Below are positions 16,495 to 31,740 of a stretch of DNA of 33,750 nucleotides, piece after piece. Source of the stretch: Acidimicrobiia bacterium. Lineage in GTDB: Bacteria; Actinomycetota; Acidimicrobiia; Spongiisociales; ZC4RG35. Both the position numbers and the translations under genes were made by a program. The notes below the pieces were generated by a model. The model ran no database searches. It worked only from the letters and a program-made list of their open reading frames with translations, and was not told the origin of the DNA. The DNA is taken from assembly GCA_031389635.1 (NCBI GenBank), contig JANMST010000262.1, positions 1 to 33,750 of the forward strand, read 5' to 3'. The first letter of the stretch is position 1, and each line of letters begins with the position of its first letter.

Positions 16495-18684
16495 CTAGCG
16501 GCGCAGGAAGGCCGCCAGGTTCCGCAACTCGGCCGAGGGATCGATCCCGAGCTGCTCGGAGAACTTCCGAAGACATTCGTCGTAGGCAGTTAGGGCTGCC
16601 ACCCGATCACCACGGGCGAGATGGGACCGCATCACCACCATCCAGGCCCGCTCCGATAGCGGCTGTCGGATGAGGGCGGCCCGGGCTCGGGCCAGCGCAT
16701 GATCGGTCTGGTCGAGGTCGAGCAGCCACTCGGCCGAACGGATCGAAAGGTCGGAGGCGAGCTCACTCAATCGGGTACGTTCCCGAACCGCCCACTCCGT
16801 GTAGGGCTCCGAGGCCAGGTAGTCCTCCCCGGCGAGGTCGAGGGCCCGGACCGCCGACTGTTCGGCGGCTTCCAGGTCTCCCGCCGCGGCGCTCGTCGTC
16901 GCCTCGCCGGCCAGGTCGAGAAACTCCGCTACGTCGAGCCATTCGATCATCTCGGGCGCGATCCGGTAGAACGATCCTTGTCGTCGCAGGCATTTGGAAC
17001 CATCCGGGTGGATCTGTTCGAGACCCCGACGAGTCGCCGTCAACGCCACGTTCAGGTTCTTTGAACCACGTTCCGGATCACCCTCGGGCCAGAGGGCTTC
17101 CATCGCATGGTCGCGATGAACCGGGTCGCCCTGATGGTGCAGGAGCAGCGCCAACAGTGAAACCGCCTTCTTCGACCGCCAGGTCCAAACCGGCACCGGC
17201 TGTCCGCTGAGCCTTACTTCGAGATCGCCGAAGAGTCGAGCGCGAAGACGAAGCGGTTGGGCGGCGACTGTGAAAGTACCTTCTCCGCGACGCGTCAGCG
17301 CGACCAGGTTCTGCGCGGTCTCGGCCGTGTCGGGGTCCGCCAATCCCAGTTCGAGGAGTTCGGGATGAAGGGATGCATGGGCCGCGAGGACGTGCTCGAG
17401 GCGATATCGACCGACCATCGCCAGCGCCTGCCCGACCAGATCGAGAGCCTCGGCGTGATCCTCCGACGCGAGCTTGGCCGCTGCCAGCCACCACTGAGCG
17501 ATGACCAACTCGCCTTTTGAGTCAAAGGTCGTAAGAACAGGCAGAAGGCTCTCGATGTGGTCAGCAACTCGAGAAGGGGGGTCACCCGAAGCCAGTTGCG
17601 CCCGGGCCTGGCAGGAAAGCAGGCGGGCGTTTTCCAACGGGTCGGGCGAGGGGACCCGCAACCGGACTGCTTCGTCGGCGTCGCGGCGGGCACCCGCCGG
17701 GTCTCCGGCCGCTAGATGAAGGTCGGCCCGGGAGGCATAGGTGTGGGCGAGGCCGAACACGTTCTCGGCAGATGCCTTGAGGGCAATAGAGCTCTCGTAG
17801 AGGTCGAGCGCCTCGTCGAAGCGCCGCTGCTCGCGACGGGCCTCAGCGAGGTTGTTCAGCGCATACGACCGGGTGGTGTCGTGATCGGTGCGCTTGGCCA
17901 GTTCGATGGCCTCGGTGAGATGGCGGACGGCTCGATCAAACAGACCGAGATGACGCTCCGTGTGTCCGAGACTGTTGAGGGTGTTGGCCAGGGACAGATA
18001 GTTGGTGCCCCCCAGCTTGAGTTCATAGGCGCGCTCGAGGAAGGTTCGGGAAGGAACCGGCTCGCCTCGGTCCAGCAGCCTGGTGCCGAGATTGTGATAG
18101 GCCCGAGACGTCGAGAAGGTGAGCCCGTTCTGGCGGTAGAGATGCAAGCCCTCCAACCAGAAGGCGAACATCCCCGATTGGTCGTGGGACACCCATCGCG
18201 TCTCGTCTTCATCGAGGACTAGATCGGCGACAGGTGGGTCGCTCCAAGTCAGCGCCTCTTCGAAGGCTGTTCGAGCCTCGGCGAAGACCCCCTCCCGTTC
18301 CAGAATGACCCCTTCGGCCATGCCGACGAGGAACCGGACCCTCCGACCCGAAGGAGTGTCTTCCGCCCACCTAGTCCGGAATTGATGACCGGCCCGGCGC
18401 AGCGTCACGAGGGCGAGCGTGTGACGCCGACGGGTCGACCAGACCCACGCCAGGTAATAGAGGACCCAGGCGTTGTCCGGGGCCGACTGCTCGAGCCGCC
18501 GCAGGGTCGCCTCCATCCGATCGAGAGGAAGATCGAAGCCGAGCTCGACGAACATGATGGCACCCTGGTCGAGCGCCTCGAAGGCTCGATCCTCCTCACC
18601 GGCGTCGAGGGCAGCCTCTATCGCCTCCAATTGGCGGAGCACCCGCCGATCGGCAGTCCCGACCGGAATACGTCGGTCGTCCAT
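16495..18684 (-). CDS. TPR-repeat protein with a C-terminal OmpR-type winged helix plus BTAD domain (SARP module at the C-terminus)
   Basis: The C-terminal ~250 aa read LFGDLEVRLSGQPV...RSKKAVSLLALLL...AMEALWP, followed by the BTAD helices (SERAWMVVMRSHLARGDRVAALTAYDECLRKFSEQLGIDPSAEL). The N-terminal ~480 aa are TPR-like. I found no Walker motifs. Confidence 0.85.
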   Translation of the reverse strand: MDDRRIPVGTADRRVLRQLEAIEAALDAGEEDRAFEALDQGAIMFVELGFDLPLDRMEATLRRLEQSAPDNAWVLYYLAWVWSTRRRHTLALVTLRRAGHQFRTRWAEDTPSGRRVRFLVGMAEGVILEREGVFAEARTAFEEALTWSDPPVADLVLDEDETRWVSHDQSGMFAFWLEGLHLYRQNGLTFSTSRAYHNLGTRLLDRGEPVPSRTFLERAYELKLGGTNYLSLANTLNSLGHTERHLGLFDRAVRHLTEAIELAKRTDHDTTRSYALNNLAEARREQRRFDEALDLYESSIALKASAENVFGLAHTYASRADLHLAAGDPAGARRDADEAVRLRVPSPDPLENARLLSCQARAQLASGDPPSRVADHIESLLPVLTTFDSKGELVIAQWWLAAAKLASEDHAEALDLVGQALAMVGRYRLEHVLAAHASLHPELLELGLADPDTAETAQNLVALTRRGEGTFTVAAQPLRLRARLFGDLEVRLSGQPVPVWTWRSKKAVSLLALLLHHQGDPVHRDHAMEALWPEGDPERGSKNLNVALTATRRGLEQIHPDGSKCLRRQGSFYRIAPEMIEWLDVAEFLDLAGEATTSAAAGDLEAAEQSAVRALDLAGEDYLASEPYTEWAVRERTRLSELASDLSIRSAEWLLDLDQTDHALARARAALIRQPLSERAWMVVMRSHLARGDRVAALTAYDECLRKFSEQLGIDPSAELRNLAAFLRR

Positions 18685-18805: not shown

Positions 18806-19921
18806 CTATTCGTCTTTCACGTCGAATTCGACGATCAGGCCCGTCTGGTCCTGGTCCGGGAAATCGGTGTGGTAGCCCAGTTCGGCCTTCCACGTCGCCC
18901 GATCCCAATCCTTGTTGTCCTTGGTCCAATAGTTGAAGTGAAGGACCGGGTTGTCACTGTGAAAGATGATCCTGGCCACCGAGTCGCTATCGGGATGGTT
19001 GAACTTGCGCCCGCTCGACGAAATCAGGAAGTGCTTGCTGTCCAGGCGTTCCATCAACTCGTTGCTGAGATTGTTCTTGCTGCCATGGTGAGGCACCTTG
19101 AAGGCGTCGATCTTCAGCTTGGACTCGCCCCGTTCGGCCAGCAGGCGATCGAGCCCTTCGATCAGTGAGCCGCTGCGTGCGTCACCCGTGAAGAGGACGG
19201 ACCTATTCCCATACTCGGCCAGGAAGCTGATGCTGCTGGCGTTGGGAGCGCTCGAATCTTCGCTGAACTTGCGATTGGCCCATTTCTCCACATTGGGGGC
19301 GGCGCTTCCCAAGCGATCCTTCTGATAGCGCGGAGCGTCTTCGAGCAACTTGGCACCGGTGAATTCACCACCCGGTACGAGCCCGGCGTTCTCGATTGTC
19401 TTCTTCCACTCCGCCTTCAGGCGACCGAGATCCTTGGGGTTCGGGCCGACGATTGTCAGAGTCATCCCACCCGGGAGCTTGTAAACCGGCAGCCTCGTCG
19501 TCGGGTCGGACGAGATGGCGATCGCCTTGCCACCGGTCATCTGATGATGGGGATAGCCCCGCTGGGAGATCCTCTCCGTGAGCATCTCGCCTTGCTTGGC
19601 CCCGAGGGTGTCGGCCTCCTTGATCTGTTCCCAGGCGTTGAACCAGAACTCCCCGACCTCGAGCTCGAGGTCCTCGCTGAGGAGCTTGACCATCGCGTCG
19701 ATGTGGTCGTTGTCGATGTGGGTGATCGTGATCAACTCGAACCTGCGCGTACCGTCGATGCCCTCGATCTTCTCGAGCAACCGGTCGTGAGTTCCGAGCA
19801 CTCCACCGTCGATGAGGATGCGGCGCGGCTTCTTGGGATCTCCGTATTCGATCCACAGGGCATCGCCCTCCTCGGCCGGGAGCATCTCGATGCGAAGCTT
19901 CTTTACGATGCCACCCTCCAA
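18806..19921 (-). CDS. MBL-fold metallo-hydrolase, ComEC/Rec2-nuclease-like, soluble stand-alone
   Basis: Motifs are ITHIDNDHIDA (an HxDxDH variant of HxHxDH), SVLFTGDA and KVPHHGSKNN. The probable start is TTG at 19921, because the beta-1 strand LRIEML must be included. This start overlaps the upstream gene by 19 nt. Confidence 0.8.
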   Translation of the reverse strand: MEGGIVKKLRIEMLPAEEGDALWIEYGDPKKPRRILIDGGVLGTHDRLLEKIEGIDGTRRFELITITHIDNDHIDAMVKLLSEDLELEVGEFWFNAWEQIKEADTLGAKQGEMLTERISQRGYPHHQMTGGKAIAISSDPTTRLPVYKLPGGMTLTIVGPNPKDLGRLKAEWKKTIENAGLVPGGEFTGAKLLEDAPRYQKDRLGSAAPNVEKWANRKFSEDSSAPNASSISFLAEYGNRSVLFTGDARSGSLIEGLDRLLAERGESKLKIDAFKVPHHGSKNNLSNELMERLDSKHFLISSSGRKFNHPDSDSVARIIFHSDNPVLHFNYWTKDNKDWDRATWKAELGYHTDFPDQDQTGLIVEFDVKDE

Positions 19922-22698
19922 TCAGCGTCGCCGTAGGCGACGATCGACAGCACCATGGGATATCCGTCGTGCAGTGCCTTTCGTCGCAGGCGGCGAAGAA
20001 CGTCTCCGAGTCCGGTCTCCTCACCAGCCGCCTCGGACTTCAGGAAGCTGAGCAACTCGACGGCCACCGGCACGGCATGACGACCGAGAATGGTATTGGT
20101 GGTGCTGATGACGACCGCGGCCCCGGCCCGGCGGAACCTCGGGACGAGACCCTGAAAAGGGATCTTGGGGTTGGCGGTCTCGCACCCGAGGAGCACCGCA
20201 ACGACCGGCTTGGTTCGAGGCTCACGCATACGAACCCCCACCCTATTGACGGGTTCAAGCTCTCCGCCACCGATTTCCATCCCGATCGAAACACCGTCCT
20301 GATCGGTGTGCGGCACCAGGAAAATCATCGACGGATCGAGCGTTCCCATCTTCTCTTCGAAGTCATCCCAACTCATCGCCTGGGTGGCCTTGAATCCTCC
20401 TTCGGTCAGAGTCGTGGTCAGGTCTGATCGGTCCTCAGGGCTGACCTTGTCGCTCATGCTCCACAACACCGATTCGAGAGGCGTGATGCAATTGCGACCG
20501 GCGATGGGCTCTGATTGGAGGCGATACTCCCCCGCCAGCTCGACGAAGCTCGGATCGTGGGCGTGGCGTTCGATCACGTAGCGAACCCCCCAGAAGCCGG
20601 TTGGACAAATGGGGATCTCGCCAGGTCCGTGCCGCGTTTCGCAAGGCTGGCAGGTTCCCTCCAACACCACCTTCTTCCAGCTCTTGCAGAGCTTTCGCAC
20701 CGTCGGTGGGCGCAGGGCATAGAACAACTCCACCGGGAGATAAGACTCGGGTGTGGCCGAGATGATCTGGACCCGGCCCTCGGCAAAGAACCGGTCGGTG
20801 ATGCCGTGGTCGTTGACAAAGGTCTGGTGGAGCTCCTCACCGATCGTGGCCGCGTCGAAGAGGAGATCGAGGCTCGCCGGCGAGGTCAACGATTCGAAGG
20901 CATCGGGATCGTCGGCCACCGCCGTCAGAACGCCGATGAGCTGATCGATTCGAGGCCTCAGCCCGTCAACCGATCGCAGGGTCACACCGTCCTTGCAGAT
21001 GACGGTCGCCGCCTTGTCGCCGGAATCGTTGCGGTTGACAACGATGGCCACATCGAACGTCTTCAGGTCCGACAATCCTCCGAGGCCGGCTCGCACGATC
21101 GTCTCGACCTCGATCTCGGGCCTTCCCAGTCGGGACGGACGGCTGGCCACGACGTCGGATCGGAACAGAGCCGTTTGCAGCACCCGGCCCTGGAAGTAGA
21201 GCGCGATGCGCCCGAACACCGGGCCTGGATCGGTTATCAACAACGTGAGCTCGGCCCGATCGGAGTCGCCGGTGACCGGGAGGGTGACATGGGTTCTTTG
21301 GGTTTCTTCCTGGTTGTCGGCGCAGACGAAAGCAACCTCGATTTGATTGGGTCCCTCCGGCAGGTCGTCGACCGGAACCGCCGGCGCCTCTGGGCGGGTG
21401 ATTGATTCAGAGGAAAGGACACCGATCCACACCTCGAGGGAGTAGGCCTTGCCTGCCTCGAGGGCGACCTTGTGATCGACGCCGCCCTTCTTGATGGCGC
21501 CGTTCAACACTCGAACCTCGACTACTTCGTTCTCATGGTCACCGCGGGTTCCTCCATGTGAGCCGCCGTCCCCGTTGGCGGTGGCCATCTCCTCGGGAGG
21601 GGGCAGCTCCCCGGCGGCCGTGACCAGCATGGCCAGACCGGTCGCCTCGTGACTCTCGCCTTCGAAAGTGAATCGATCGTTGCGGATCGCATCCGACAGG
21701 TAGGACGCCAGAGCTCCCGCAAAGACCTTGCCGGATATCGTGAGTCCGGGGAGCAACTGGGATATCTCCTCGGATACATCGATCTCATAGTGACGGATAC
21801 GTGAGAGCCGGTCGGCGAATCGAGCAATGGTTTCCGATATGCGGCTGTCTGCGACCAGCCGGTATGAGAGGGCGCTGTATCCGGCACCGTTGTTCGTGAT
21901 CTCGGCGCGCTTCAAGGCGAAGTCGATCGGATCGTCGTGGGAGAGACCCTCGACCACGGCGTTGAGCCATCCGGGGTTCGAGTCGGGGGCTCCCGCCAGG
22001 TGGCATCCCCAGGCCCCGAACCGACTCGCCAGCCGGTCGGCGATTCGGGCGACCTCTGCTGGCTCGACGTCGACCGGCCCGAGAACGACGACCAAACCAG
22101 GCGAGACCTCGGGCACGATATCCATCGCGTCGGCCTCCGAGGCCGACCAGGGAACGAGCAATATCTCGCATCCTTCTCTCGCGTCAACCAGAGTCTGGAG
22201 TTGCGGCCACCACAACGAACCCTCGAGCTCACCACGCAGGCGCTCGGATCGTGCATCGTCGGCCAGGATCCCGATCCGCAACGGCCACCGCCATGAGAAT
22301 TCACCCGCTCCTGGTTCGGCAAGAACGTAGGCGCTAACACCGCGCTCGGGCTCGGTCATCACCATTAGCCAGTCGTGCAATTCGCTCTGAATTCCGAAAC
22401 CAGGATTCACCTGAAGCCTGACCGGGATCGCCCCGCCAGCTCTGGCAGCAACGGCAGGCGGCAACCACTCAAGGCTGCGGCGGGGCCGCTCCCAACGCAC
22501 TGCCTTTTCGGTGTCGCTCAGGACATCTCGAAGGGCGGCCATCAAGTCACTTTGATAGACGAGTTCCGGGTGGGCTTCGAGGACGCCAGCCGCCACGATG
22601 GCGTCCGAGAACTGGCGGTCGATGAGCTGGGAACCCCAATCGCCGAGTGACTTCCTCACCTGAAAGAACGGGCTCGGTGTCCGAGGGCTGGTTGCCAT
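19903..22698 (-). CDS. Large (931 aa) protein with a C-terminal CHAT (caspase-fold peptidase) domain
   Basis: A GGAG RBS lies 6 nt before the ATG at 22698. The C-terminal ~290 aa show IISATPESYLPVELFY, His in FLVPHTD and Cys in VAVLLGCET 42 residues later, then AGAAVVISTTNTI. I do not recognise the N-terminal ~640 aa. Confidence 0.8.
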   Translation of the reverse strand: MATSPRTPSPFFQVRKSLGDWGSQLIDRQFSDAIVAAGVLEAHPELVYQSDLMAALRDVLSDTEKAVRWERPRRSLEWLPPAVAARAGGAIPVRLQVNPGFGIQSELHDWLMVMTEPERGVSAYVLAEPGAGEFSWRWPLRIGILADDARSERLRGELEGSLWWPQLQTLVDAREGCEILLVPWSASEADAMDIVPEVSPGLVVVLGPVDVEPAEVARIADRLASRFGAWGCHLAGAPDSNPGWLNAVVEGLSHDDPIDFALKRAEITNNGAGYSALSYRLVADSRISETIARFADRLSRIRHYEIDVSEEISQLLPGLTISGKVFAGALASYLSDAIRNDRFTFEGESHEATGLAMLVTAAGELPPPEEMATANGDGGSHGGTRGDHENEVVEVRVLNGAIKKGGVDHKVALEAGKAYSLEVWIGVLSSESITRPEAPAVPVDDLPEGPNQIEVAFVCADNQEETQRTHVTLPVTGDSDRAELTLLITDPGPVFGRIALYFQGRVLQTALFRSDVVASRPSRLGRPEIEVETIVRAGLGGLSDLKTFDVAIVVNRNDSGDKAATVICKDGVTLRSVDGLRPRIDQLIGVLTAVADDPDAFESLTSPASLDLLFDAATIGEELHQTFVNDHGITDRFFAEGRVQIISATPESYLPVELFYALRPPTVRKLCKSWKKVVLEGTCQPCETRHGPGEIPICPTGFWGVRYVIERHAHDPSFVELAGEYRLQSEPIAGRNCITPLESVLWSMSDKVSPEDRSDLTTTLTEGGFKATQAMSWDDFEEKMGTLDPSMIFLVPHTDQDGVSIGMEIGGGELEPVNRVGVRMREPRTKPVVAVLLGCETANPKIPFQGLVPRFRRAGAAVVISTTNTILGRHAVPVAVELLSFLKSEAAGEETGLGDVLRRLRRKALHDGYPMVLSIVAYGDADWRVAS

Positions 22699-23121
22699 CC
22701 GAAGCTCCTATCGACCTAACACGTCATACAGGTGCAATCCCACCTGATGCCAGCCAATCGGAGATGGGTTCGTCCCATCTCTCCCATCGCCTGGAAGGGG
22801 GATGTAGAGGTCATTCGGTTGGTCCACATTTTGGTCGATGCCGGGCCCGGATGAGGGGATCGTTGGCGATCGGAAGGTGCGCACTTTCCGGACTCGTCCG
22901 GAGGCGGTTCCCAGAACGCGGCTTTGAACCTGGCTTTGCGCAGAGGCAACGCCAGGGAGCGATCGCAAGCGTCTGTTGCCTTTCATGCGGTTGCCCCCCT
23001 GTATTCCTGGTCCGAACCACGGTTGAGGCAAGACAGTCCCCCAGCCGCAAGACAGATGTACCTCAGGGTTGTCTTTGGCGTGTCTCGCTGTTGAGCTGCC
23101 GCCCGAGCTCCGGAAGCGCTC

Positions 23122-26100
23122 ATGTACGGCCGCCGTCGTTTCGCTAGATTCGTGTGCATGGCTCCTATCCGGATCCATCTACTCGGTGGGTTTCTGCTCG
23201 AGCACGACGGGCGCAACATGCCTCCCATCCCGTCGGCGGCGGGCCGATCTCTGTTCGCATATCTAGTCACCAACCGCGATCGGCGGCACACGAGGGACCT
23301 TGTTGCGGGCACTTTCTGGCCGGATCTCCCGGAGCAGGGAGCCCGGCGACGACTGAGCCAGGCCTGGTGGCAGATCCAGACCTCACTTCAAGATGTCAAG
23401 TCGGGTCACCCGTTCATCGAGGCCACCCTGTTCGACGTTGCGTTTGTTGCTACGGACTACTGGCTGGACATCGCCGAATTCGACCGCCAGATCAGCACCG
23501 CTGCCAAGCAGGCCGTAACCCGCGACCCGGCCGAGTCGGGATCACTGGAACAAGCCGTTGATCTCTATCGGGGCGAGTTCCTCGCCGGCTTCTACGACGA
23601 CTGGACCCACTTCGAGAGAGAGCGGCTTCGCTCGCAGTATTTGGTGAGCCTGGAAAGACTCATCGCGCTGCACAAGAGCCGGGCCGACTATGAGACAGCC
23701 CAGTACTTCGCCCGACGATTGAGCTTGCATGACCCGCTGCGAGAGTCGGCTCATAGGGAGGTGATGAGGCTCAGCTTCCTGCTCGGCCACAGCAATGAGG
23801 CACTTCGACAATACGAGCGGTGTGCGGACATCCTTTCCGAGGAACTGGGGAGACGCCCCTCAACAGAAACCGAAGAGCTCCGCATCCACATCGCTCAGAT
23901 GCGAGAAAAGGGTGAGAGCCCATTTGCTCCCACCATCAATGCTCCCCTTCTGAATGCGGCCCAGCGAATCCCCCTTGTGGGCCGAACCGAGGAGAGGAGC
24001 AGCATCCTCCGACGGATGGAGGACACGCTGCACGGCCGGGGGGGCGTGATCTTGGTCGAGGGGGAATCGGGCATTGGAAAGTCCAGACTCGTGGAGGAGT
24101 TGATCGACGATGCTCAGTGGCGCGGGCTGAGCCCCCTGCTGGCGACCTGTTCTGAAGCTGAGTTGCTTCACCCCTTGCAGGGTCTACGTCGGGCATTGCA
24201 AAGCGGATTGACCCGCCTTCGCTTCGATCAACTACAGGCAGTCTTGCATCGGAACACCCTCGCTGAGCTGGCCGAGTTGGTGCCTCACATCAGGGGCTGG
24301 CTCAACGACTCCGGGCTCGCTGCCGGCCCACCAGACGGCAACGCCCGAGAACAGCACCTACACACCATTCGCTCCGCGTTGTTCGCTCTTGCCGACCTCA
24401 ACCCCATCGTGCTCTTTATCGACGACGCCCAATGGCTTGACGAAGAGTCGGCGGCCGTTCTGGCAGAACTCGCTCCTGATATCGCCGATCACGGTCTGCT
24501 GATCCAATTGAGCTACAGAGACAGCGAGGTCAGGGATCGGCCGGTGATGTGGCAGCGACTCCTCGACATCGACGCCAGGACCAACACCCAACGGATCAAA
24601 ATCATTGCTCTCGACCTGGTCGAGTCAGGACGACTCGTGGAAGAGAGCTTGGGCGAAACCAAGGCAGACCCCGACCTGGTTGAGGGTCTGTACTTGGAAA
24701 CCGGGGGCAATCCTCTCTTCATCCTCGAGTCTCTGCGAGGGTGGCATGAGAACACGCTGGAAGGGCTCGGGCACGAAAGCCTGGATCGAAGACTCACGCT
24801 CCCGCCCACCAGCGGTGTCACGAGCGTCATCAGCCGCCGGCTCCAATCGCTTTCGGCCCAAGCCAAGGCGGTCCTCGAAGCCACCGCCGTGCTGGGGGGT
24901 CAGGCAAGATCGCGGCTGGTGGCATCCATGACCGGCTTGCCAATGGCTACCACGGTCCAATCGGTGACAGATCTGGTCCGGCGGGGCCTGCTACGTGAGA
25001 ACGTTGCGGGCTACGAGGTACCCCACGACCAGCTTCGGCGAGTGGTGTTGGGCGGGATCGACGGCGCCATGCTGAAGGTGATCCATGAGCGGGCCGCCAA
25101 TGCAATCGAGACCGAACAGCCCGACCTCGTCGAGGACCTCGCCTATCACTTTTCGGCCAGCCACATCGCCGACAAGGCTTACCGCTACTCGCTTCTATCC
25201 GCGAGGAGAGCCGTTGCCCTGGGTGCCTACGACATCGCGGTGCGACAGTTCGAGAACGCTGCCCGTTGGGCGGTGGGCGACGAGCGCTACCCGGTCCTCA
25301 CGGAATGGGAGGAAGCATTGGCGGTTCTCGGTCTACGAAGCGAGCAACACCGCATTCTCAACGAGTTGGCGGAGGTGGCAGTCGGTCCGGAAAAGAAAGC
25401 CGAGCTGGCCCGTCGACGGAGCCGGCTCTTCGCCGAGGAGGGCAATCACCGCCAGGCGGTGGAGGTTGCCAACCAGGCCCTCGTCGACAGCGAAGCGGGT
25501 GTGCCGCCGTTGCTGAAGGCGAGGTTGCTTCAGAACCTGGGATTGGTCATGGCCCGCTCGGGCCGGGCCCAGGAAGCCCTCCCCCATCTCGAAGCGGCCG
25601 TCGAAGTACTGGGCGACGATGTCGTTTCCAGAGCCGCCGCCCTGTGCGAGCTCGGCAACGTCCTCTGCGAGGTGCAGGAGTACCAGCGAGCCTCGGTTGC
25701 CTTGGCCGAGGCGAAGAGCCTCTACGAAGACATCGGCGACCTGCGAGGCACCGCCGAGGTCAACTCTCAACTGGCAATTGTGTCGATGGAGTTGGGTGAC
25801 GGGGACACCGCCATCAGCCTCTATACCGCAGCACTGCAGATCTCCCGCGAGCTCGACTACCGCCGCGGTCAGGCCGTCAACCTCGCCAACCTGGCCAACG
25901 TCCTCTACACCCAGGGAAAGGTCGGCCCCGCTCTGGGCCATTACCAGGAGGCAGCCTCGATTTTCTCCGAGATCGGGAATCGACTGGGGGCGGCCCTCGT
26001 ATCGACCAACGCAGCTTCGGTGAGATATCTGGTATTGGGAGATGCCTCGGTTGAGGCCGATATCCGACGCTCCCTCGCCTACTTCGAACAGGAAGACCAT

Positions 26101-26961
26101 CGATGGGGGCAGGCATTCTGCCAGGAGCACCTGGCCACTATCAGCCAGGGCAGCGGCGACCTCGCAACGGCCCGCGATCTCATAAACCGGGGCCTTGCTC
26201 TCCTGGAAGGGGGAGGACACCGCTGGGTCGAGGTCCATCTCCGCCGGCTCGGTGTGGAAGTCGAACTCGAGGCCAACGAGCCCGACCAGGCGGCGCTCCA
26301 GGTCGAAATCGCACGCCGGCTTTGCGACGAGCTCGGTCTGGCCGATGTTGCTCCCACCATCGAAAGCCTCGATGCCCTCGTGAAACTGAGCTACGGGCAG
26401 GTGGACGAGGCCCTCATGTCCGCTCGACGAGCTACCAACCTTCTGCAGAGAGGGACCGAGTTGCCGCATCTGGTCTGGTTCAGGCGCTACTTGGTCGCCA
26501 AAGCTGCGGGAGCGGATACCGATGCGGTCGACTCCTTGGCCAGGTCAGTGGCGCTCCTTACCCGGGTTCTCGATTCGTTTGGAACCGATGATCGCCGCCT
26601 GGCCATTACACGGGCCCACCATGTTCGAGCGATCATCGAGGCGCGGGATCGAAGCTTTCCCCAGATCCAGGAAATTCGCCTCCCGCTGGCCGGGATTCCC
26701 CTCGGGCGATCGTTAAAGGGCGGGGACTGGACCCAGGTCCGCTGGACCGTGTCCGATCCCTCCGATTTCGACGTGCCCGACCCGGTCGGGCGGCGTCGGC
26801 TCAGAATCAGGCGTTTCCTCGATGAGGCGGCCCGGCAGGGCGCCGACCCCCGTATCGAGGATGTCGCCACCGCACTGGGGGTGAGCGTGGCCACGGTCCG
26901 CAGGGACGTGGCCGAACTCAGACGAGCGGGTTCCGGACTGAGCACCCGCGGCAGCCGTTAA
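23122..26961 (+). CDS. SARP/AfsR-like regulator: OmpR-type wHTH + BTAD + AAA/NB-ARC-like ATPase + TPR + extra C-terminal HTH (1279 aa)
   Basis: Domain evidence is IRIHLLGGFLLEHDG, the BTAD segment (LRESAHREVMRLSFLLGHSNEALRQYERCADILSEELG), Walker A LVEGESGIGKSRL, Walker B VLFIDDAQWLDEES and TPR helices. The C-terminus IEDVATALGVSVATVRRDVAELRRAG is DeoR-like. The start is 23122 (GGAAG RBS) or 23158. Confidence 0.9.
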   Translation: MYGRRRFARFVCMAPIRIHLLGGFLLEHDGRNMPPIPSAAGRSLFAYLVTNRDRRHTRDLVAGTFWPDLPEQGARRRLSQAWWQIQTSLQDVKSGHPFIEATLFDVAFVATDYWLDIAEFDRQISTAAKQAVTRDPAESGSLEQAVDLYRGEFLAGFYDDWTHFERERLRSQYLVSLERLIALHKSRADYETAQYFARRLSLHDPLRESAHREVMRLSFLLGHSNEALRQYERCADILSEELGRRPSTETEELRIHIAQMREKGESPFAPTINAPLLNAAQRIPLVGRTEERSSILRRMEDTLHGRGGVILVEGESGIGKSRLVEELIDDAQWRGLSPLLATCSEAELLHPLQGLRRALQSGLTRLRFDQLQAVLHRNTLAELAELVPHIRGWLNDSGLAAGPPDGNAREQHLHTIRSALFALADLNPIVLFIDDAQWLDEESAAVLAELAPDIADHGLLIQLSYRDSEVRDRPVMWQRLLDIDARTNTQRIKIIALDLVESGRLVEESLGETKADPDLVEGLYLETGGNPLFILESLRGWHENTLEGLGHESLDRRLTLPPTSGVTSVISRRLQSLSAQAKAVLEATAVLGGQARSRLVASMTGLPMATTVQSVTDLVRRGLLRENVAGYEVPHDQLRRVVLGGIDGAMLKVIHERAANAIETEQPDLVEDLAYHFSASHIADKAYRYSLLSARRAVALGAYDIAVRQFENAARWAVGDERYPVLTEWEEALAVLGLRSEQHRILNELAEVAVGPEKKAELARRRSRLFAEEGNHRQAVEVANQALVDSEAGVPPLLKARLLQNLGLVMARSGRAQEALPHLEAAVEVLGDDVVSRAAALCELGNVLCEVQEYQRASVALAEAKSLYEDIGDLRGTAEVNSQLAIVSMELGDGDTAISLYTAALQISRELDYRRGQAVNLANLANVLYTQGKVGPALGHYQEAASIFSEIGNRLGAALVSTNAASVRYLVLGDASVEADIRRSLAYFEQEDHRWGQAFCQEHLATISQGSGDLATARDLINRGLALLEGGGHRWVEVHLRRLGVEVELEANEPDQAALQVEIARRLCDELGLADVAPTIESLDALVKLSYGQVDEALMSARRATNLLQRGTELPHLVWFRRYLVAKAAGADTDAVDSLARSVALLTRVLDSFGTDDRRLAITRAHHVRAIIEARDRSFPQIQEIRLPLAGIPLGRSLKGGDWTQVRWTVSDPSDFDVPDPVGRRRLRIRRFLDEAARQGADPRIEDVATALGVSVATVRRDVAELRRAGSGLSTRGSR

Positions 26962-27479: not shown

Positions 27480-28559
27480 TTATGGTGCTTTCGGGTGGGG
27501 GATTAGGTACTCGGGGTCGTCCCACTGGATCCGGGCCTGGTCGACCGCCAACTTGTAGGTCGAATCGGCCGTCATGCGGTCCTTTACGCTCTGATGGATC
27601 CGGGGGTCGGGGGGCTCTTCGGGCCCGGACTTGAAGGCCTCGATCGTCCTGGTCCTGAAGGTGAGCAGCGCCCAGATCCAACCGGCCTTGTGGACCCGGC
27701 CCCGGGCATGGGTCGGATCGAGTTTGCAGGTCTTGGCGTAAGCCCGCGGCCGCAAGAGCAAACCCTCATCGAGGGCACGATCGGTCATCCATTTCAGCGA
27801 CACCACGGACAACTCGACCTGGTCCTTGAAGCCACCACCCACATCGCTGTGGACACCGGCAAACCACACCTCCCGTAGGTCCGGAGTTGTCTTCGCGTCG
27901 GCGAGGTACTCCCGATAGGGTCGCCGGCGCTCGTCGATGGAGACTGCGTGTCGAACCACGCGGGCATTGGGGAGTTGCCGGGTGTAAAGCCATTGCGGAT
28001 TCCACCGCAGTAGTCCGAGGGCCTTGACCGAGTCCCACAGCCCCAGGAAGTGGAGAGGAAGAGACAAGCTGCCCTCGCTCTCGACGGAGAAAGATTTGGC
28101 GAACCGATCGATCCTGTCCCAATCGTCCTTCTTCCAGGAGTTGCCTTTGGTGTAGGCGGACACGAGGTAATTGACGAGGTTCTCGGCCCCGCGTCTCATC
28201 AGTCCGCCCCGGTGAGCCATGCCAACCAGGGCGCGGGCCGTGTAGGCCCCTCGGCTAAAACCGAAAACATAGACACGGTCGCCGGGTTCATAGACCTGCA
28301 TCAGGTAGGTGTACGCCTCGGCCATATTGACCTTGATTCCGAAGCCGAATGTGAGTCCGAGCAGCTTGGTCAGGGCTCTTCCCCACGACGTCCAGGCGCC
28401 CTGGGCGCCGAAGGTACCAACCCCGGGGTCGTAGAAGGCGACCTGACGTTCCGGGTCTGAGAGGTCGAGCATCTCATAGAGGTTCACCACGTTCGAGGTG
28501 CCCCGGGCCTTGATCTGGTTGCCAGTGCCATCGAGGCACAAAACGATGTTCTTGGCCAT
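27480..28559 (-). CDS. DUF2235 alpha/beta hydrolase (T6SS Tle1-like phospholipase family)
   Basis: The N-terminus is MAKNIVLCLDGTGNQ. The nucleophile elbow is VFGFSRGAYTARAL. Other family segments are FLGLWDSV and FAGVHSDVGGG. Confidence 0.85.
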   Translation of the reverse strand: MAKNIVLCLDGTGNQIKARGTSNVVNLYEMLDLSDPERQVAFYDPGVGTFGAQGAWTSWGRALTKLLGLTFGFGIKVNMAEAYTYLMQVYEPGDRVYVFGFSRGAYTARALVGMAHRGGLMRRGAENLVNYLVSAYTKGNSWKKDDWDRIDRFAKSFSVESEGSLSLPLHFLGLWDSVKALGLLRWNPQWLYTRQLPNARVVRHAVSIDERRRPYREYLADAKTTPDLREVWFAGVHSDVGGGFKDQVELSVVSLKWMTDRALDEGLLLRPRAYAKTCKLDPTHARGRVHKAGWIWALLTFRTRTIEAFKSGPEEPPDPRIHQSVKDRMTADSTYKLAVDQARIQWDDPEYLIPHPKAP

Positions 28560-28686
28560 GACGATCTCCTGACTTATTTGCTAGCGGAATTGGACGGGCC
28601 CTGTCGAACGGAGCGAGCCTCGTTCGTCTACTAGGCAGATTGGTCGACGGAAAGGCCGTCCGACCCCGTAATCGGAAGGAGTTGCG

Positions 28687-29025
28687 ATGGCAGCCAAGGT
28701 AATCCACTTCGAAGTGGTGGGTAAGGACGCCGGGGCCTTGCAGAAGTTCTACAGCGAAGTCTTCGACTGGAAACTCGACACGAACAGCCCGAGCGGATAC
28801 GGCATGGTGGCTCCCGAGGTTGGACTGGCCGGCGGCATCGGTGGGACCCCGGACGGCTCGGCCGGGCACGTGACGTTCTACGTGCAGACCGATGATCCCA
28901 AGGCAACACTCGAAAAGGTCGAGCGACTCGGCGGCAAGGTCGTGATGCCGTTGACCGAGATCGCGCCAGAGACGACCATCGCTCTCTTCGCCGACCCCGA
29001 AGGTCACGTCATCGGGCTGATGTAG
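28687..29025 (+). CDS. VOC (glyoxalase/bleomycin-resistance) family protein
   Basis: A GGAAGGAG RBS is present. Family segments are VIHFEVVGKDAGALQKFYSEVFDW, VTFYVQTDD and ALFADPEGHVIGL. Confidence 0.85.
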   Translation: MAAKVIHFEVVGKDAGALQKFYSEVFDWKLDTNSPSGYGMVAPEVGLAGGIGGTPDGSAGHVTFYVQTDDPKATLEKVERLGGKVVMPLTEIAPETTIALFADPEGHVIGLM

Positions 29026-29048
29026 CCCACCGACATCCGTCGTCCGCA

Positions 29049-29089
29049 GCCAGAGCGACCACCACCGACTGATGGGTGGTCGCTCTGGC
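29049..29089. terminator. Perfect 15-bp stem hairpin between convergent genes (bidirectional terminator candidate)
   Basis: GCCAGAGCGACCACC (29049..29063) pairs with GGTGGTCGCTCTGGC (29075..29089). It is followed by TTGTCGTT. Confidence 0.7.
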
Positions 29090-29096
29090 TTGTCGT

Positions 29097-29345
29097 TCAA
29101 CCCTTGGCTGTCGTTCGATCTTTTGCTGGGCTCGTTTCCGGAGCCAGAGCAGCCTCAGCCGCTCGGAGTGCACCTGGTAGGTCGAGATCCTCCCCTGCTC
29201 TGATCTCCCTGTTGCGGTCGCTGACATCCATTCTCAGGACGAGCTTCTCGCGAAGTTCGTTGGCGAAGTTGCGATCCACCGGTGGTCGCTCGCCTCCCAG
29301 ATCGTTGTAGATCTTCTCGGCCGCGCCCCACAAACGGGCCGCCGG
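29097..29345 (-). pseudogene. Detached C-terminal tail of a large ATPase-TPR regulator, in a different frame from the cyclase ORF
   Basis: The frame reads ARLWGAAEKIYNDLGGERPPVDRNFANELREKLVLRMDVSDRNREIRAGEDLDLPGALRAAEAAL. This matches the conserved tail pattern (RLLGAAEALRE.G.PLPP..R.......G..L.L..A...AL) of SARP/cyclase-ATPase-TPR proteins. No ATPase or TPR body lies upstream. Confidence 0.55.
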
Positions 29346-31408: not shown

Positions 31409-31740
31409 AAGGGGCTCCTCGACTAGAAGAAGACTCGTCCGCCAGGGCGGTCGCGAGGCACGGAGCCGCACTTAGCTGGAGGGCACTCTCCGCTTCGGGT
31501 TCGCCCGTCAAAGAGCCGCGCCCTTCGCCTCGGCAGTTGAGGCTACTACCGGCGCTGGGAGGCTGGGCGCCGCGCAACCCCAGCCTCGTCTGGCGCGGCG
31601 AGTTGCTCCTGGTGTCGATCGTCCGCGCCAAAACGAGGGTTTGGGAGCGTTCGCCAGAACCTCCGAGGACCTCCATCGAGGCGTAGCATCCGCTGCTCAT
31701 TGATTCATCCCCTAGATGAACAGGATGAGAGGTTTCGAAC

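What the first reader, a model, noticed from the sequence alone, without database searches (positions are those of the whole stretch)
18806..22698. CHAT protease + ComEC-type MBL hydrolase overlapping operon bracketed by SARP/STAND-TPR regulators: candidate undescribed conflict/defence module
Seen in sequence: a 931-aa ORF carries a clan-CD style His/Cys dyad in its last ~290 aa. His797 lies in FLVPHTD (nt 20308..20310) and Cys839 in VLLGCET (nt 20182..20184). The preceding ~640 aa match nothing I can name, and the middle part looks beta-sandwich-like. Its stop lies 19 nt inside the next ORF. That ORF is a soluble MBL hydrolase with HxDxDH (19703..19720), LFTGDA and VPHHGS motifs typical of the ComEC/Rec2 nuclease-type MBL. 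The pair is transcribed divergently from a 1279-aa SARP-ATPase-TPR-HTH gene. A TPR-SARP gene follows on the same strand. Established knowledge: CHAT proteases and MBL nucleases recur as effector domains in NTPase-dependent conflict systems, and CHAT proteases also occur in type III CRISPR. I know of no named system consisting of this pair. Inference: this is a protease-plus-nuclease effector module, possibly gated by the adjacent STAND-type sensor.
Basis: partly seen in the sequence, partly recalled or inferred. Interest (0 to 1): 0.8.

Follow-up and report, generated by a model that had tools for sequence, protein, structure and literature searches.

The report
CHAT protease-gated nuclease operon
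This is a real, widely conserved operon that pairs a giant caspase-like (CHAT) protease with a DNA-cutting enzyme that looks locked until two loops are clipped; it is a relative of the 'Canu' caspase-nuclease antiviral systems described in 2025, here with a different protease and an extra lipase gene, so it is not a wholly new kind of system.

Summary
Both ORFs, the 19-nt overlap, H797/C839 and the MBL motifs are at the stated coordinates.

The 931-aa protein matches no Pfam, NCBIfam or PADLOC model. Its fold model matches Csx29 TPR-CHAT and separase, and its His/Cys dyad is invariant across relatives. Its family is large: 2406 clusters at 50% identity.

In 35 of the 38 loci first fetched (31 non-redundant), and in two plasmid loci checked later, its gene is followed within -25 to +19 nt by an MBL gene. 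That MBL is 35% identical (E=5e-61) to KaeCanC, the caspase-activated pro-nuclease of the Canu defence system.

The MBL model is confident except for two loops. Each loop carries a >=90%-conserved Leu-Gly, and these align with the mapped cleavage sites of the Hachiman pro-nuclease HamM.

The usual unit has three genes. A lipase gene (DUF2235/Tle1-like or patatin) sits directly upstream in most loci. In this window it lies at 27480-28559, cut off by the 1279-aa SARP gene.

Both SARP genes occur only in relatives with >=88% identity and look like transcription factors, so gating by the neighbouring STAND protein is not supported.

Verdict: a new variant of a known kind, a protease-licensed pro-nuclease module. 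No function was tested here.

The parts
27480..28559 (-). DUF2235 / T6SS_Tle1-like alpha/beta-hydrolase (lipase-type), 359 aa. It is the ancestral first gene of the operon. Candidate catalytic motifs are intact: GFSRG with Ser102 (nt 28254-28256), WDSV at residue 175 and HSDVGGG at residue 237.
   Evidence: Pfam PF09994, E 5.2e-73, 246 bits against a cutoff of 27. In L001, L002, L006, L007, L012, L013, L015 and L016 the orthologue lies directly upstream of the large protease gene, often with a 4-nt overlap. Motifs are conserved in the orthologue alignment.
23122..26961 (+). 1279-aa SARP (BTAD)-AAA_16-TPR-HTH gene. It is a lineage-specific insertion between the hydrolase gene and the protease gene, and is not part of the conserved module. 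It may act as a local transcription regulator.
   Evidence: Pfam BTAD 2.5e-24, AAA_16 3.5e-21, TPR_12 1.1e-20, HTH_DeoR and DUF1670 at the C-terminus. Homologues are found only in L005 and L011 among the 38 loci.
19903..22698 (-). 931-aa multidomain CHAT-like cysteine protease, called 'BIG' in this report. It is the central gene of the module.
   Evidence: No Pfam, NCBIfam or PADLOC hit. AF2 model with pLDDT 70. Foldseek matches Csx29 and separase. Family of 2406 clusters at 50% identity.
21604..22698 (-). BIG residues 1-365: N-terminal helical plus alpha/beta region of unknown fold family, inferred to be the sensor or regulatory region. Residues invariant or >=90% conserved in the 26-sequence alignment: W136, W138, P139, H254, D259, E348; the GESHEAT stretch (346-352) is conserved among close relatives. 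Followed by a disordered linker at 366-395.
   Evidence: DSSP and pLDDT. Invariant columns. No internal duplication with the CHAT part. This region is the least conserved part in distant relatives, where tblastn hits often begin at residue ~390-470.
20971..21513 (-). BIG residues 396-576: all-beta, Ig-like sandwich region.
   Evidence: Strands 397-576 in the model. Foldseek hits to CARDB (3idu, TMt 0.58-0.63) and ASF1 folds.
19906..20970 (-). BIG residues 577-931: CHAT/separase-like protease region. Catalytic His797 (nt 20308-20310) and Cys839 (nt 20182-20184). A conserved four-cysteine cluster, C671/C683/C686/C698 (nt 20605-20688), is inferred to be a zinc site.
   Evidence: Foldseek 8eex_B Csx29 4.7e-9; separase 5mz6 and 5fc2; DdvA 8rot. 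hhalign against four Pfam-positive CHAT neighbours gives E 6.1e-5, with His on GHG and Cys on AC. H797, G838 and C839 are invariant, C671 and C698 are invariant, and C683 and C686 are >=90% conserved. Pfam CHAT is weakly hit by 4 of 26 relatives.
18806..19921 (-). 371-aa ComEC-type MBL-fold hydrolase of the CanC/HamM/Avs1a type, a predicted gated pro-nuclease. Metal-binding motifs: HIDNDH (nt 19703-19720), D247, H278/H279.
   Evidence: 35% identity and E 5e-61 to KaeCanC. 29% identity and E 1e-45 to PflHamM. PADLOC LmuA 1.2e-66 and Avs1a 5e-43. NCBIfam Avs1a 3e-57, below the equivalog cutoff. AF2 pLDDT 85. Foldseek ComEC 9ic4 5.7e-14.
19601..19606 (-). MBL L106-G107: predicted first protease cleavage site, in gating loop 1.
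   Evidence: >=90% conserved in 40 homologues. Lies at the edge of one of only two segments with pLDDT<50, residues 102-106. Aligns with the HamM cleavage site I118|G119 and with L-G in KaeCanC.
19307..19312 (-). MBL L204-G205: predicted second protease cleavage site, in gating loop 2.
   Evidence: >=90% conserved. Lies inside the second segment with pLDDT<50, residues 197-208. Aligns with the HamM cleavage site I218|S219.
16495..18684 (-). 729-aa TPR-SARP (Trans_reg_C plus BTAD) gene downstream on the same strand. Lineage-specific neighbour, not part of the conserved module.
   Evidence: Pfam TPR_12 1.4e-25, BTAD 7.7e-18, Trans_reg_C 5e-6. Homologues only in L005 and L011.

Best explanation
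The locus encodes a protease-licensed cell-death module of the Canu / protease-MBL type.

The 371-aa MBL is a ComEC-type DNase held as a zymogen by two flexible insertions. The 931-aa protein is a CHAT-class cysteine protease with the dyad His797/Cys839. On activation it is proposed to cut the MBL after Leu106 and Leu204 (L|G sites). That would unblock the nuclease, which degrades DNA and kills or arrests the cell, most probably as abortive-infection defence.

The trigger is probably read by the protease's own variable N-terminal ~400 aa together with the Ig-like region. The neighbouring SARP protein is not the likely sensor.

The usual unit has three genes: lipase, protease, nuclease. The upstream DUF2235 or patatin lipase is most likely a second effector controlled by the same protease. 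In this window's lineage an AfsR-like SARP gene has been inserted between the lipase and protease genes, and it may now regulate transcription of the pair.

Shown here: homology, fold, conserved dyad, synteny, conserved L-G loops.
Inferred: cleavage, DNase activity, the lipase's role, the sensor, the defence phenotype.
For: 1. The MBL is homologous to experimentally characterised pro-nucleases: KaeCanC 35% identity over the full length, E 5e-61; PflHamM E 1e-45; PADLOC LmuA, Avs1a and DRT-MBL.
2. The MBL model is confident (pLDDT 85, pTM 0.87). The only two segments with pLDDT<50 are 102-106 and 197-208.
3. L106-G107 and L204-G205 are each >=90% conserved in 40 homologues at 40-93% identity. 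They align with the mass-spectrometry-mapped HamM sites I118 and I218.
4. The region between the two sequence blocks shared with the ComEC MBL domain is about 74 aa longer than in ComEC. The best fold match is ComEC 9ic4, 266 aa against 371 aa.
5. The partner has a CHAT/separase fold, an invariant His/Cys dyad and a dyad aligned to the CHAT catalytic residues.
6. The protease gene is followed by the MBL gene at -25 to +19 nt in 35 of 38 loci, from Acidimicrobiia to Proteobacteria, and on plasmids of Mycobacterium sp. JS623 and Cupriavidus basilensis. Bit scores of the two proteins co-vary: Spearman 0.94, or 0.80 in the distant subset.
7. A lipase gene sits directly next to the pair in about two thirds of the loci. 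Two unrelated lipase families fill the same slot: DUF2235 in 8 loci and patatin in about 10.
8. Published precedent. Caspase-family proteases activate CanC. Trypsin-like proteases activate HamM, Avs1a and VcMBL by two cuts. A caspase-like protease activates an alpha/beta-hydrolase zymogen by two cuts (PMC12799240; bioRxiv 10.1101/2025.11.14.688446).
9. The distribution is patchy and genomic contexts vary. Some flanks hold type I restriction, MADS, pAgo-associated SIR2, AriA, PDC-S05, CHAT-STAND and TIR/caspase genes, and transposases.
Against: - No experiment exists for this protease family.
- The window protein itself fails every Pfam, NCBIfam and PADLOC model.
- The AF2 model is weakest exactly around the dyad: pLDDT<50 at 796-821 and 839-850.
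- The hhalign support for CHAT is moderate (probability 65%).
- Nothing detectable resembles CanA or CanB, so the activation logic may differ from Canu.
- The window is not a classical defence island. Its neighbours are mostly cyclase, AAA_16, TPR and SARP signalling genes and oxidoreductases. Many flanks in other loci are housekeeping genes.
- Occlusion of the active site by the loops could not be measured, because no model coordinates were available.
- No evidence was obtained that the lipase is a zymogen or a protease substrate.
Confidence: 0.62

Rival explanations
1. First reader's model. The protease and nuclease are parallel effectors gated by the adjacent 1279-aa STAND-type SARP-ATPase-TPR protein, which senses infection and activates them, as in AVAST.
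For: A divergent 1279-aa gene with AAA_16 and TPR domains lies 423 nt upstream. The same arrangement is kept in L005 and L011. In four other loci (L008, L017, L020, L022) a different protein, a CHAT-STAND NTPase, flanks the pair. Some STAND association with the family therefore exists.
Against: The SARP genes are found only in relatives with >=88% identity. All loci at 25-53% identity lack them. In eight of those loci the lipase gene sits where the SARP gene is here, which argues for an insertion. The protein carries BTAD and a C-terminal HTH (the N-terminal 110 residues preceding BTAD had no Pfam hit; a winged-helix there is inferred), the architecture of AfsR-like transcription activators, and has no protease or effector fusion. 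In described protease-MBL systems the sensor is fused to the protease.
Confidence: 0.07
2. The same biochemical cascade, protease activating nuclease with or without the lipase, serves a purpose other than anti-phage defence. Options include stress-triggered or developmental programmed cell death, plasmid or mobile-element addiction, or interbacterial antagonism by a Tle1-like lipase toxin.
For: DUF2235/Tle1 and patatin families include secreted antibacterial lipases (the Pfam name). Several loci lie on large plasmids. Many flanks are not defence genes. The window itself is rich in signalling regulators rather than defence genes.
Against: No PADLOC or Pfam hit to secretion-system proteins appeared among the window ORFs that were scanned or among the 101 flanking ORFs. 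The closest characterised homologue of the MBL works in phage defence. The hydrolase, protease and MBL were not examined for signal peptides or transmembrane segments, so a cytoplasmic location is assumed, not shown.
Confidence: 0.18
3. The adjacency is functional but not proteolytic. The 931-aa protein is a catalytically inert scaffold or regulator, and the MBL is an ordinary nuclease or hydrolase, for example in DNA uptake or repair or small-molecule hydrolysis within a SARP-controlled metabolic cluster.
For: The large protein has no family-model hit. Model confidence is low at the dyad. SARP regulators usually control biosynthetic clusters. Amine oxidase, RibD_C and a weak condensation-domain hit lie nearby.
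Against: The His/Cys dyad and the flanking G838 are invariant over 26 sequences at 24-53% identity, which argues for catalysis. The MBL lacks the ComEC membrane and competence domains, and its closest relatives are defence pro-nucleases. The metabolic neighbours and the SARP genes are not conserved with the pair.
Confidence: 0.06

Closest known systems
Canu (caspase-nuclease) system, KaeCanABC of Klebsiella aerogenes (PMC12799240, Science 2025)
   Same: The MBL pro-nuclease gene lies directly downstream of a clan-CD (caspase-family) protease gene. The window MBL is 35% identical to CanC over its full length (E 5e-61) and shares the L-G at the first gating loop. An Ig-like domain is present in the protease protein. 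The paper's supplementary tree groups 'caspase-/CHAT-' proteases next to these nucleases.
   Different: The protease here is a 931-aa CHAT/separase-like protein with an unknown ~400-aa N-terminal region. Its Ig-like domain lies before the protease domain, not after it. It has no detectable similarity to the 390-aa MALT1-like CanA (hhalign probability 0.09; tblastn none). There is no CanB homologue. A lipase gene is usually present; the paper and its supplement do not mention lipase, patatin or DUF2235.
Trypsin-MBL modules of Hachiman (HamM), AVAST type 1 (Avs1a), Lamassu and DRT (PMC12799240; bioRxiv 10.1101/2025.11.14.688446; 10.1101/2025.09.03.673762)
   Same: Homologous MBL: PADLOC LmuA 1.2e-66, Avs1a 5e-43, RT-associated MBL 4e-37; PflHamM 29% identity, E 1e-45. 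There are two flexible insertions, and the conserved residues sit at the positions of the mapped HamM cuts I118 and I218.
   Different: The partner is a cysteine protease, not a trypsin-like serine protease. The conserved P1 residue is Leu rather than Ile. The gene order is protease then MBL, whereas the MBL lies upstream in the trypsin systems. The protease is not fused to a known defence core (HamA, Avs, LmuA). The NCBIfam Avs1a score of 194 bits is far below the equivalog cutoff of 420.
Caspase-like protease plus alpha/beta-hydrolase zymogen (LcCaspase/LcHydrolase; bioRxiv 10.1101/2025.11.14.688446)
   Same: It is a precedent for a clan-CD protease activating a lipase-like alpha/beta-hydrolase death effector encoded next to it. 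Here a DUF2235 alpha/beta-hydrolase is the first gene of the operon.
   Different: Homology between the window hydrolase and LcHydrolase was not tested, because that sequence was not at hand. The published pair has a single effector, whereas here the hydrolase comes in addition to the MBL. In distant relatives a patatin replaces the hydrolase.
Csx29 TPR-CHAT (Craspase) and separase
   Same: They are the best structural matches to the C-terminal ~430-500 residues (8eex_B 4.7e-9; 5mz6; 5fc2). The His/Cys dyad is aligned to CHAT. From my own knowledge, not tested here, Csx29 cleaves Csx30 after Leu or Met, which is compatible with an L|G site.
   Different: There is no TPR arm, no CRISPR context and no Csx30/31. 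The Pfam CHAT model is not matched by the window protein. A Cys4 insertion and an Ig-like domain are present.
ComEC/Rec2 beta-lactamase-like nuclease domain
   Same: It is the best fold match (9ic4, E 5.7e-14, TMt 0.72). Sequence blocks with the metal-binding motifs are shared.
   Different: The window protein is soluble and stand-alone, without the competence membrane domains. It is about 100 aa longer, and the extra length lies between the conserved blocks where the two L-G loops sit.
AfsR-like SARP-NTPase-TPR regulators (for the 1279-aa neighbour)
   Same: The BTAD - P-loop NTPase - TPR architecture.
   Different: It has an additional C-terminal HTH (DeoR/DUF1670-like). Its position looks like an insertion into a lipase-protease-nuclease operon, seen only in this lineage.

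Membership tests
Protease-gated MBL pro-nucleases (HamM / Avs1a / CanC family) | ComEC-type MBL fold with an intact metal-binding motif set | tested here: met
   Foldseek top hit is the ComEC MBL domain 9ic4, E 5.7e-14. H68, D70, D72, H73, D247, H278 and H279 are invariant in 40 homologues.
Protease-gated MBL pro-nucleases (HamM / Avs1a / CanC family) | Sequence homology to experimentally characterised members | tested here: met
   KaeCanC 35% identity, E 5e-61. PflHamM 29% identity, E 1e-45. PADLOC LmuA 1.2e-66 and Avs1a 5e-43. It is not an Avs1a equivalog: 194 bits against a cutoff of 420.
Protease-gated MBL pro-nucleases (HamM / Avs1a / CanC family) | Two disordered insertions, each carrying a conserved cleavage residue | tested here: met
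   The only two segments with pLDDT<50 are 102-106 and 197-208. L106-G107 and L204-G205 are >=90% conserved and align to HamM I118 and I218. Whether the loops cover the active site could not be measured, because no coordinates were available.
Protease-gated MBL pro-nucleases (HamM / Avs1a / CanC family) | Co-inherited adjacent protease gene | tested here: met
   The MBL gene lies directly downstream of the protease gene in 35 of 38 loci plus 2 plasmid loci. Spearman correlation of bit scores is 0.94.
Protease-gated MBL pro-nucleases (HamM / Avs1a / CanC family) | Inactive until cleaved, then a metal-dependent DNase | not testable with these tools
   This needs protein biochemistry or toxicity assays.
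Canu (CanABC) system | CanC-type nuclease gene downstream of a caspase-family protease gene | tested here: met
   Gene order and homology. Clan-CD fold of the partner.
Canu (CanABC) system | CanA-type (MALT1-like) paracaspase with a C-terminal Ig-like domain | tested here: not met
   hhalign of the 26-sequence family profile against KaeCanA gives probability 0.09. tblastn of KaeCanA finds nothing in the window or in 40 loci. The domain order here is Ig then CHAT.
Canu (CanABC) system | CanB partner protein | tested here: not met
   tblastn of KaeCanB at E<=0.01 finds nothing in the window or in 40 loci.
Canu (CanABC) system | Anti-phage activity that depends on the protease and nuclease active sites | not testable with these tools
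   This needs a phage challenge.
CHAT domain proteases (Pfam PF12770, clan CD) | Caspase/CHAT fold | tested here: met
   Foldseek probability 1.00 to Csx29 (8eex_B 4.7e-9; 7y84_C), separase (5mz6, 5fc2) and DdvA (8rot). Caveat: model pLDDT is 70 overall and lower near the dyad.
CHAT domain proteases (Pfam PF12770, clan CD) | Conserved catalytic His and Cys at the CHAT positions | tested here: met
   H797 and C839 are invariant. hhalign to four Pfam-positive CHAT proteins gives E 6.1e-5 and places His on GHG and Cys on AC.
CHAT domain proteases (Pfam PF12770, clan CD) | Match to the Pfam CHAT model above threshold | tested here: not met
   The window protein has no hit at E<=1. Only 4 of 26 relatives hit, with best E 1.5e-5. 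It is therefore a divergent, unmodelled branch.
   The 1279-aa and 729-aa SARP genes occur only in the window, L005 and L011. The protease carries no NTPase domain. Unrelated CHAT-STAND genes flank 4 of about 28 loci.
DUF2235 / Tle1-like hydrolases (for 27480..28559) | Match to PF09994 above threshold, with an intact GxSxG nucleophile motif | tested here: met
   E 5.2e-73, 246 bits against a cutoff of 27. GFSRG with Ser102 is conserved in the orthologues.
DUF2235 / Tle1-like hydrolases (for 27480..28559) | T6SS effector context | tested here: inconclusive
   No secretion-system family appeared among the window ORFs scanned with Pfam or PADLOC. Not every ORF was scanned, and no dedicated T6SS search was run.

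The most novel reading that the evidence does not exclude
One divergent CHAT protease, from a large and completely unannotated family of ~900-1000-aa proteins (>1000 clusters at 50% identity across at least 8 phyla), licenses two chemically different death effectors encoded on either side of it. One is a membrane-attacking lipase, DUF2235 or interchangeably patatin. The other is a gated MBL DNase. The protease reads the trigger through a new N-terminal sensor domain without any NTPase. This would be a bacterial 'initiator caspase' with two executioner substrates. In one Acidimicrobiia lineage it would have been placed under transcriptional control by an inserted AfsR-like STAND regulator.
Probability: 0.3. 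Interest if true: 0.72.

Novelty: new variant of a known kind. Interest (0 to 1): 0.55.

Why it matters
Proteolytic licensing of MBL pro-nucleases was established only in 2025. It was worked out for trypsin-like partners and for one small MALT1-like caspase, CanA.

This locus is an entry point to a much larger, unannotated partner family. RefSeq calls both genes 'hypothetical protein' on the Mycobacterium and Cupriavidus plasmids. The family combines a CHAT/separase-type protease, an Ig-like domain and an unknown N-terminal region, and it usually travels with a lipase as well as the nuclease.

If the model holds, it would:
- add a new sensor-protease chassis to bacterial caspase-like immunity;
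- give a testable cleavage motif, L|G at two mapped loops;
- provide a natural case of one protease controlling two effector types;
- allow thousands of 'hypothetical' gene pairs in soil Actinomycetota, Acidobacteriota, Chloroflexota and Proteobacteria to be annotated.

Tried and rejected
- Family models for the 931-aa protein: no Pfam, NCBIfam or PADLOC hit. A profile search against PDB sequences also found nothing at E<=1.
- Word-indexed homologue search: it found only 12-13 relatives even with a 26-sequence profile, which made the family look falsely rare. The exhaustive HMMER search showed 2406 clusters.
- The search for related loci with the diverse alignment A2 failed because no stretch was conserved enough. 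A1 worked.
- Internal duplication, i.e. the N-terminal alpha/beta region as a pseudo-CHAT domain: rejected, hhalign probabilities <1%.
- Similarity of the large protein to KaeCanA or KaeCanB: none.
- Viral fold library: only generic Ig-like matches.
- tblastn against phage genomes: no match.
- Intergenic region 22699-23121: the promoter and terminator scan and the repeat search gave nothing above the shuffled expectation. No convincing SARP-type repeat array was found.
- Conserved L-G in a loop of the DUF2235 hydrolase as a sign of zymogen status: the L-G dipeptides present lie in core family motifs, so this was uninformative.
- Pycsar reading of the neighbouring cyclase and cNMP-binding genes: only weak, partial PADLOC hits restricted to the cNMP-binding or cyclase domains. 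Not pursued.
- Measuring loop-to-active-site distances: not possible, because model coordinates are not exposed.

Full report
**1. Observation**

The two ORFs are exactly as described. 19903..22698 (-) encodes 931 aa from an ATG. 18806..19921 (-) encodes 371 aa from a TTG. The TTG is the only in-frame start ahead of the first MBL strand, so the 19-nt overlap stands.

H797 (FLVPHTD, nt 20308-20310), C839 (VLLGCET, nt 20182-20184), HIDNDH (nt 19703-19720), LFTGDA and VPHHGS are all at the stated places.

The divergent 1279-aa gene carries BTAD, AAA_16, TPR and a C-terminal HTH. The downstream 729-aa gene carries TPR, Trans_reg_C and BTAD.

**2. The large protein**

It matches no Pfam, NCBIfam or PADLOC model and no PDB sequence. 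The word-indexed search found only 12 relatives, from metagenomes and an Acidimicrobiia MAG. The exhaustive HMMER search with their alignment found 2406 clusters at 50% identity. Of these, 1159 have E<=1e-30, and most are full-length proteins of 900-1000 aa. The family is therefore large and unannotated.

In a 26-sequence alignment at 24-53% identity, H797, G838 and C839 are invariant. Four cysteines are invariant or nearly so (C671, C683, C686, C698). Several N-terminal residues are invariant or nearly so: W136, W138, P139, H254, D259 and E348.

The AF2 model has pLDDT 70 and shows four parts:
- a helical plus alpha/beta N-terminal region (1-365);
- a disordered linker (366-395);
- a beta-sandwich (396-576);
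- an alpha/beta C-terminal region (577-931).

Foldseek against the PDB puts Csx29 TPR-CHAT first (8eex_B, E 4.7e-9), followed by separases and the CHAT-containing DdvA. The beta region matches CARDB and ASF1 Ig-like folds.

A profile of the C-terminal region aligns to four neighbouring proteins that do hit Pfam CHAT. The E-value is 6.1e-5, H797 falls on the CHAT 'GHG' histidine and C839 on the 'AC' cysteine. Pfam CHAT is weakly hit by 4 of 26 relatives.

I accept 'divergent CHAT-class protease'. The caveat is that model confidence is lowest around the dyad. The N-terminal region is not a duplicated CHAT domain and remains unnamed.

**3. The MBL**

Pfam Lactamase_B is only just passed, but PADLOC gives LmuA 1.2e-66 over the full length, Avs1a 5e-43 and RT-associated MBL 4e-37. 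NCBIfam gives Avs1a 3e-57, well below the equivalog cutoff, and ComEC_Rec2 1.5e-9.

The literature search turned up three 2025 papers that explain this clade.
- In PMC12799240, MBL nucleases next to trypsin-like proteases in Hachiman, AVAST, Lamassu and DRT are pro-enzymes. Two disordered insertions block the active site, and each is cut once: HamM after I118 and I218.
- The same paper describes a further clade next to 'caspase-/CHAT-' proteases. This clade defines the Canu loci, and KaeCanABC protects against T4.
- In bioRxiv 10.1101/2025.11.14.688446, protease-associated MBLs fall into trypsin, caspase-like and subtilisin clades. A caspase-like protease also activates an alpha/beta-hydrolase zymogen by two cuts.

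Using the sequences in the Science paper's supplement, the window MBL is 35% identical to KaeCanC over its full length (E 5e-61) and 29% identical to PflHamM (E 1e-45).

The HamM cleavage positions I118|G119 and I218|S219 align with L106-G107 and L204-G205 of the window protein. Both dipeptides are >=90% conserved in 40 homologues at 40-93% identity.

The AF2 model of the MBL is confident (pLDDT 85, pTM 0.87). Its only two segments with pLDDT<50 are 102-106 and 197-208, the same two sites.

The best structural match is the ComEC MBL domain (9ic4, E 5.7e-14; 266 aa against 371 aa). The extra length lies between the conserved blocks.

**4. Synteny**

I collected 38 loci from encoding contigs and from one genome per species, plus two annotated plasmid loci.
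- A homologue of the MBL follows the protease gene on the same strand in 35 of 38 loci and on both plasmids.
- The protease stop and the MBL start lie -25 to +19 nt apart, often as a 4-nt overlap.
- The hosts span Acidimicrobiia, Actinomycetes, Acidobacteriota, Chloroflexia, Limnocylindria, Chrysiogenales, Syntrophobacteraceae and Alpha-, Beta- and Gammaproteobacteria.
- Bit scores of the two proteins co-vary: Spearman 0.94, or 0.80 in the distant subset.

**5. The third gene**

In L001, L002, L006, L007, L012, L013, L015 and L016 a DUF2235/T6SS_Tle1-like hydrolase gene lies directly upstream of the protease gene, commonly with a 4-nt overlap.

In more distant loci the same slot holds a patatin-like phospholipase: L003, L021, L023, L024, L027, L028, L033 and L037. 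In L032 the patatin lies directly downstream of the MBL, and in L035 it is divergent upstream.

Two unrelated lipase families in one position argue that this is an effector slot.

The window does contain an intact DUF2235 gene at 27480..28559 (-), with PF09994 at E 5e-73 and GFSRG Ser102 conserved. The 1279-aa SARP gene on the opposite strand separates it from the protease gene. The same arrangement is seen in L011 and L005. In L005 the hydrolase is broken into fragments.

**6. The SARP genes**

Homologues of the 1279-aa and 729-aa proteins occur only in the window, L005 and L011, where the protease is 88-89% identical. They are absent from every locus at 25-53% identity.

Their DNA-binding modules identify them as AfsR-like transcription factors. 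The simplest reading is a lineage-specific insertion that may have taken over transcription of the pair. It is not a sensor that gates the protease.

The intergenic region gave no clear promoter or SARP repeat signal.

**7. Context**

The window is not a classical defence island. Its neighbours are cyclase-AAA_16-TPR, DUF4062-cyclase and cNMP-binding genes, amine oxidases and RibD_C.

I scanned 101 flanking ORFs within about 3 kb in 28 loci. The hits included CHAT (four CHAT-STAND proteins), type I restriction R subunits, MADS components, PDC-S05, pAgo-associated SIR2, AriA and ISL3 transposases. Many were also housekeeping genes.

On Mycobacterium sp. JS623 plasmid pMYCSM01 the pair lies beside TIR-domain and caspase-family genes. 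On Cupriavidus basilensis pRK1-1 it lies beside an IS3 transposase and a PIN protein. RefSeq calls both genes of the pair 'hypothetical protein'. No phage genome carries the protease.

This fits a horizontally mobile conflict module, but I did not compute enrichment against a background.

**8. Mechanism**

Shown here:
- homology of the MBL to gated pro-nucleases;
- two conserved L-G loops predicted to be disordered;
- a CHAT-type fold with an invariant dyad in the partner;
- strict co-inheritance of the two genes;
- a recurrent lipase gene next to the pair.

Inferred:
- on a trigger read by its variable N-terminal and Ig-like part, the protease becomes active, probably by oligomerisation as for other clan-CD enzymes;
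- it cuts the MBL after L106 and L204;
- the freed DNase degrades DNA;
- the lipase is a second effector, possibly also protease-controlled, by analogy with LcCaspase/LcHydrolase.

I put about 0.6 on this cascade as an abortive-infection system.

**9. Comparison and novelty**

By function and by MBL homology this is a Canu-like, or 'MBL clade 2', module. It is not a CanABC system in the strict sense. CanA and CanB have no detectable counterpart. The protease is a different, much larger CHAT/separase-type protein, and a lipase gene is part of the unit. Neither paper mentions such a lipase.

I therefore rate it a new variant of a known kind. It is of moderate to good interest as the entry point to a large unannotated protease family and to a possible one-protease, two-effector design.

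Noticed in passing
window 29155-30486 (-) and 30410-31471 (-): Two genes lie next to each other just upstream of the hydrolase gene. One is a 443-aa DUF4062 + Guanylate_cyc protein and the other a 353-aa protein with a C-terminal cNMP-binding domain. The PADLOC hits to PycTIR and PycC cover only the cNMP-binding domain, so a Pycsar-like cyclase/effector pair is possible but unproven.
   Followed up: partly
window 4618-7728 (-): A 1036-aa Guanylate_cyc-AAA_16-TPR protein with weak PycC-like hits. Together with the 1279-aa and 729-aa SARP proteins, this makes the window unusually rich in large STAND/TPR signalling proteins.
   Followed up: no
L008 8307-12158, L017 3595-7641, L020 6339-9650, L022 2197-5586: In 4 of about 28 loci a large CHAT-STAND NTPase flanks the protease-MBL pair on the same strand. 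The L017 protein combines CHAT, AAA_16/nSTAND5 and Ig-like repeats, and the L008 protein CHAT and nSTAND1. This could be a protease cascade or merely co-located defence genes.
   Followed up: partly
window 20605-20688 (BIG residues 671-698): Four cysteines (C671, C683, C686, C698) are conserved across the family inside the CHAT-like region. They look like a zinc-ribbon insertion. No known CHAT structure was checked for an equivalent.
   Followed up: no
L005 1146-1886: In the 89%-identical relative L005 the DUF2235 hydrolase is called as two short fragments, while the protease and MBL genes stay intact. This suggests that the lipase is dispensable once the SARP insertion has separated it from the operon.
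   Followed up: partly
L001 11097-13940 (-) and L006 5818-8592 (-): A conserved ~920-aa protein with no Pfam hit (81% identical between the two loci) lies convergent to the operon, two genes downstream of the MBL. It shows no BLAST similarity to the window proteins.
   Followed up: partly
L009 12874-13686 and L039 10250-10924 (Mycobacterium sp. JS623 plasmid): A DUF5995 gene lies within about 2.5-4 kb downstream of the MBL in two unrelated loci. In L009 and L010 a 601-aa patatin protein also lies between them.
   Followed up: no
L008 3233-4390: In this Actinomycetes MAG the slot upstream of the protease gene holds a 385-aa protein with no Pfam hit instead of a DUF2235 or patatin gene. It may be a third kind of effector.
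   Followed up: no
window 28474-29100 (-): A 208-aa ORF with no family hit overlaps the start of the hydrolase gene. It is conserved only in the close relatives L005 and L011. Whether it is a real gene is unknown.
   Followed up: no
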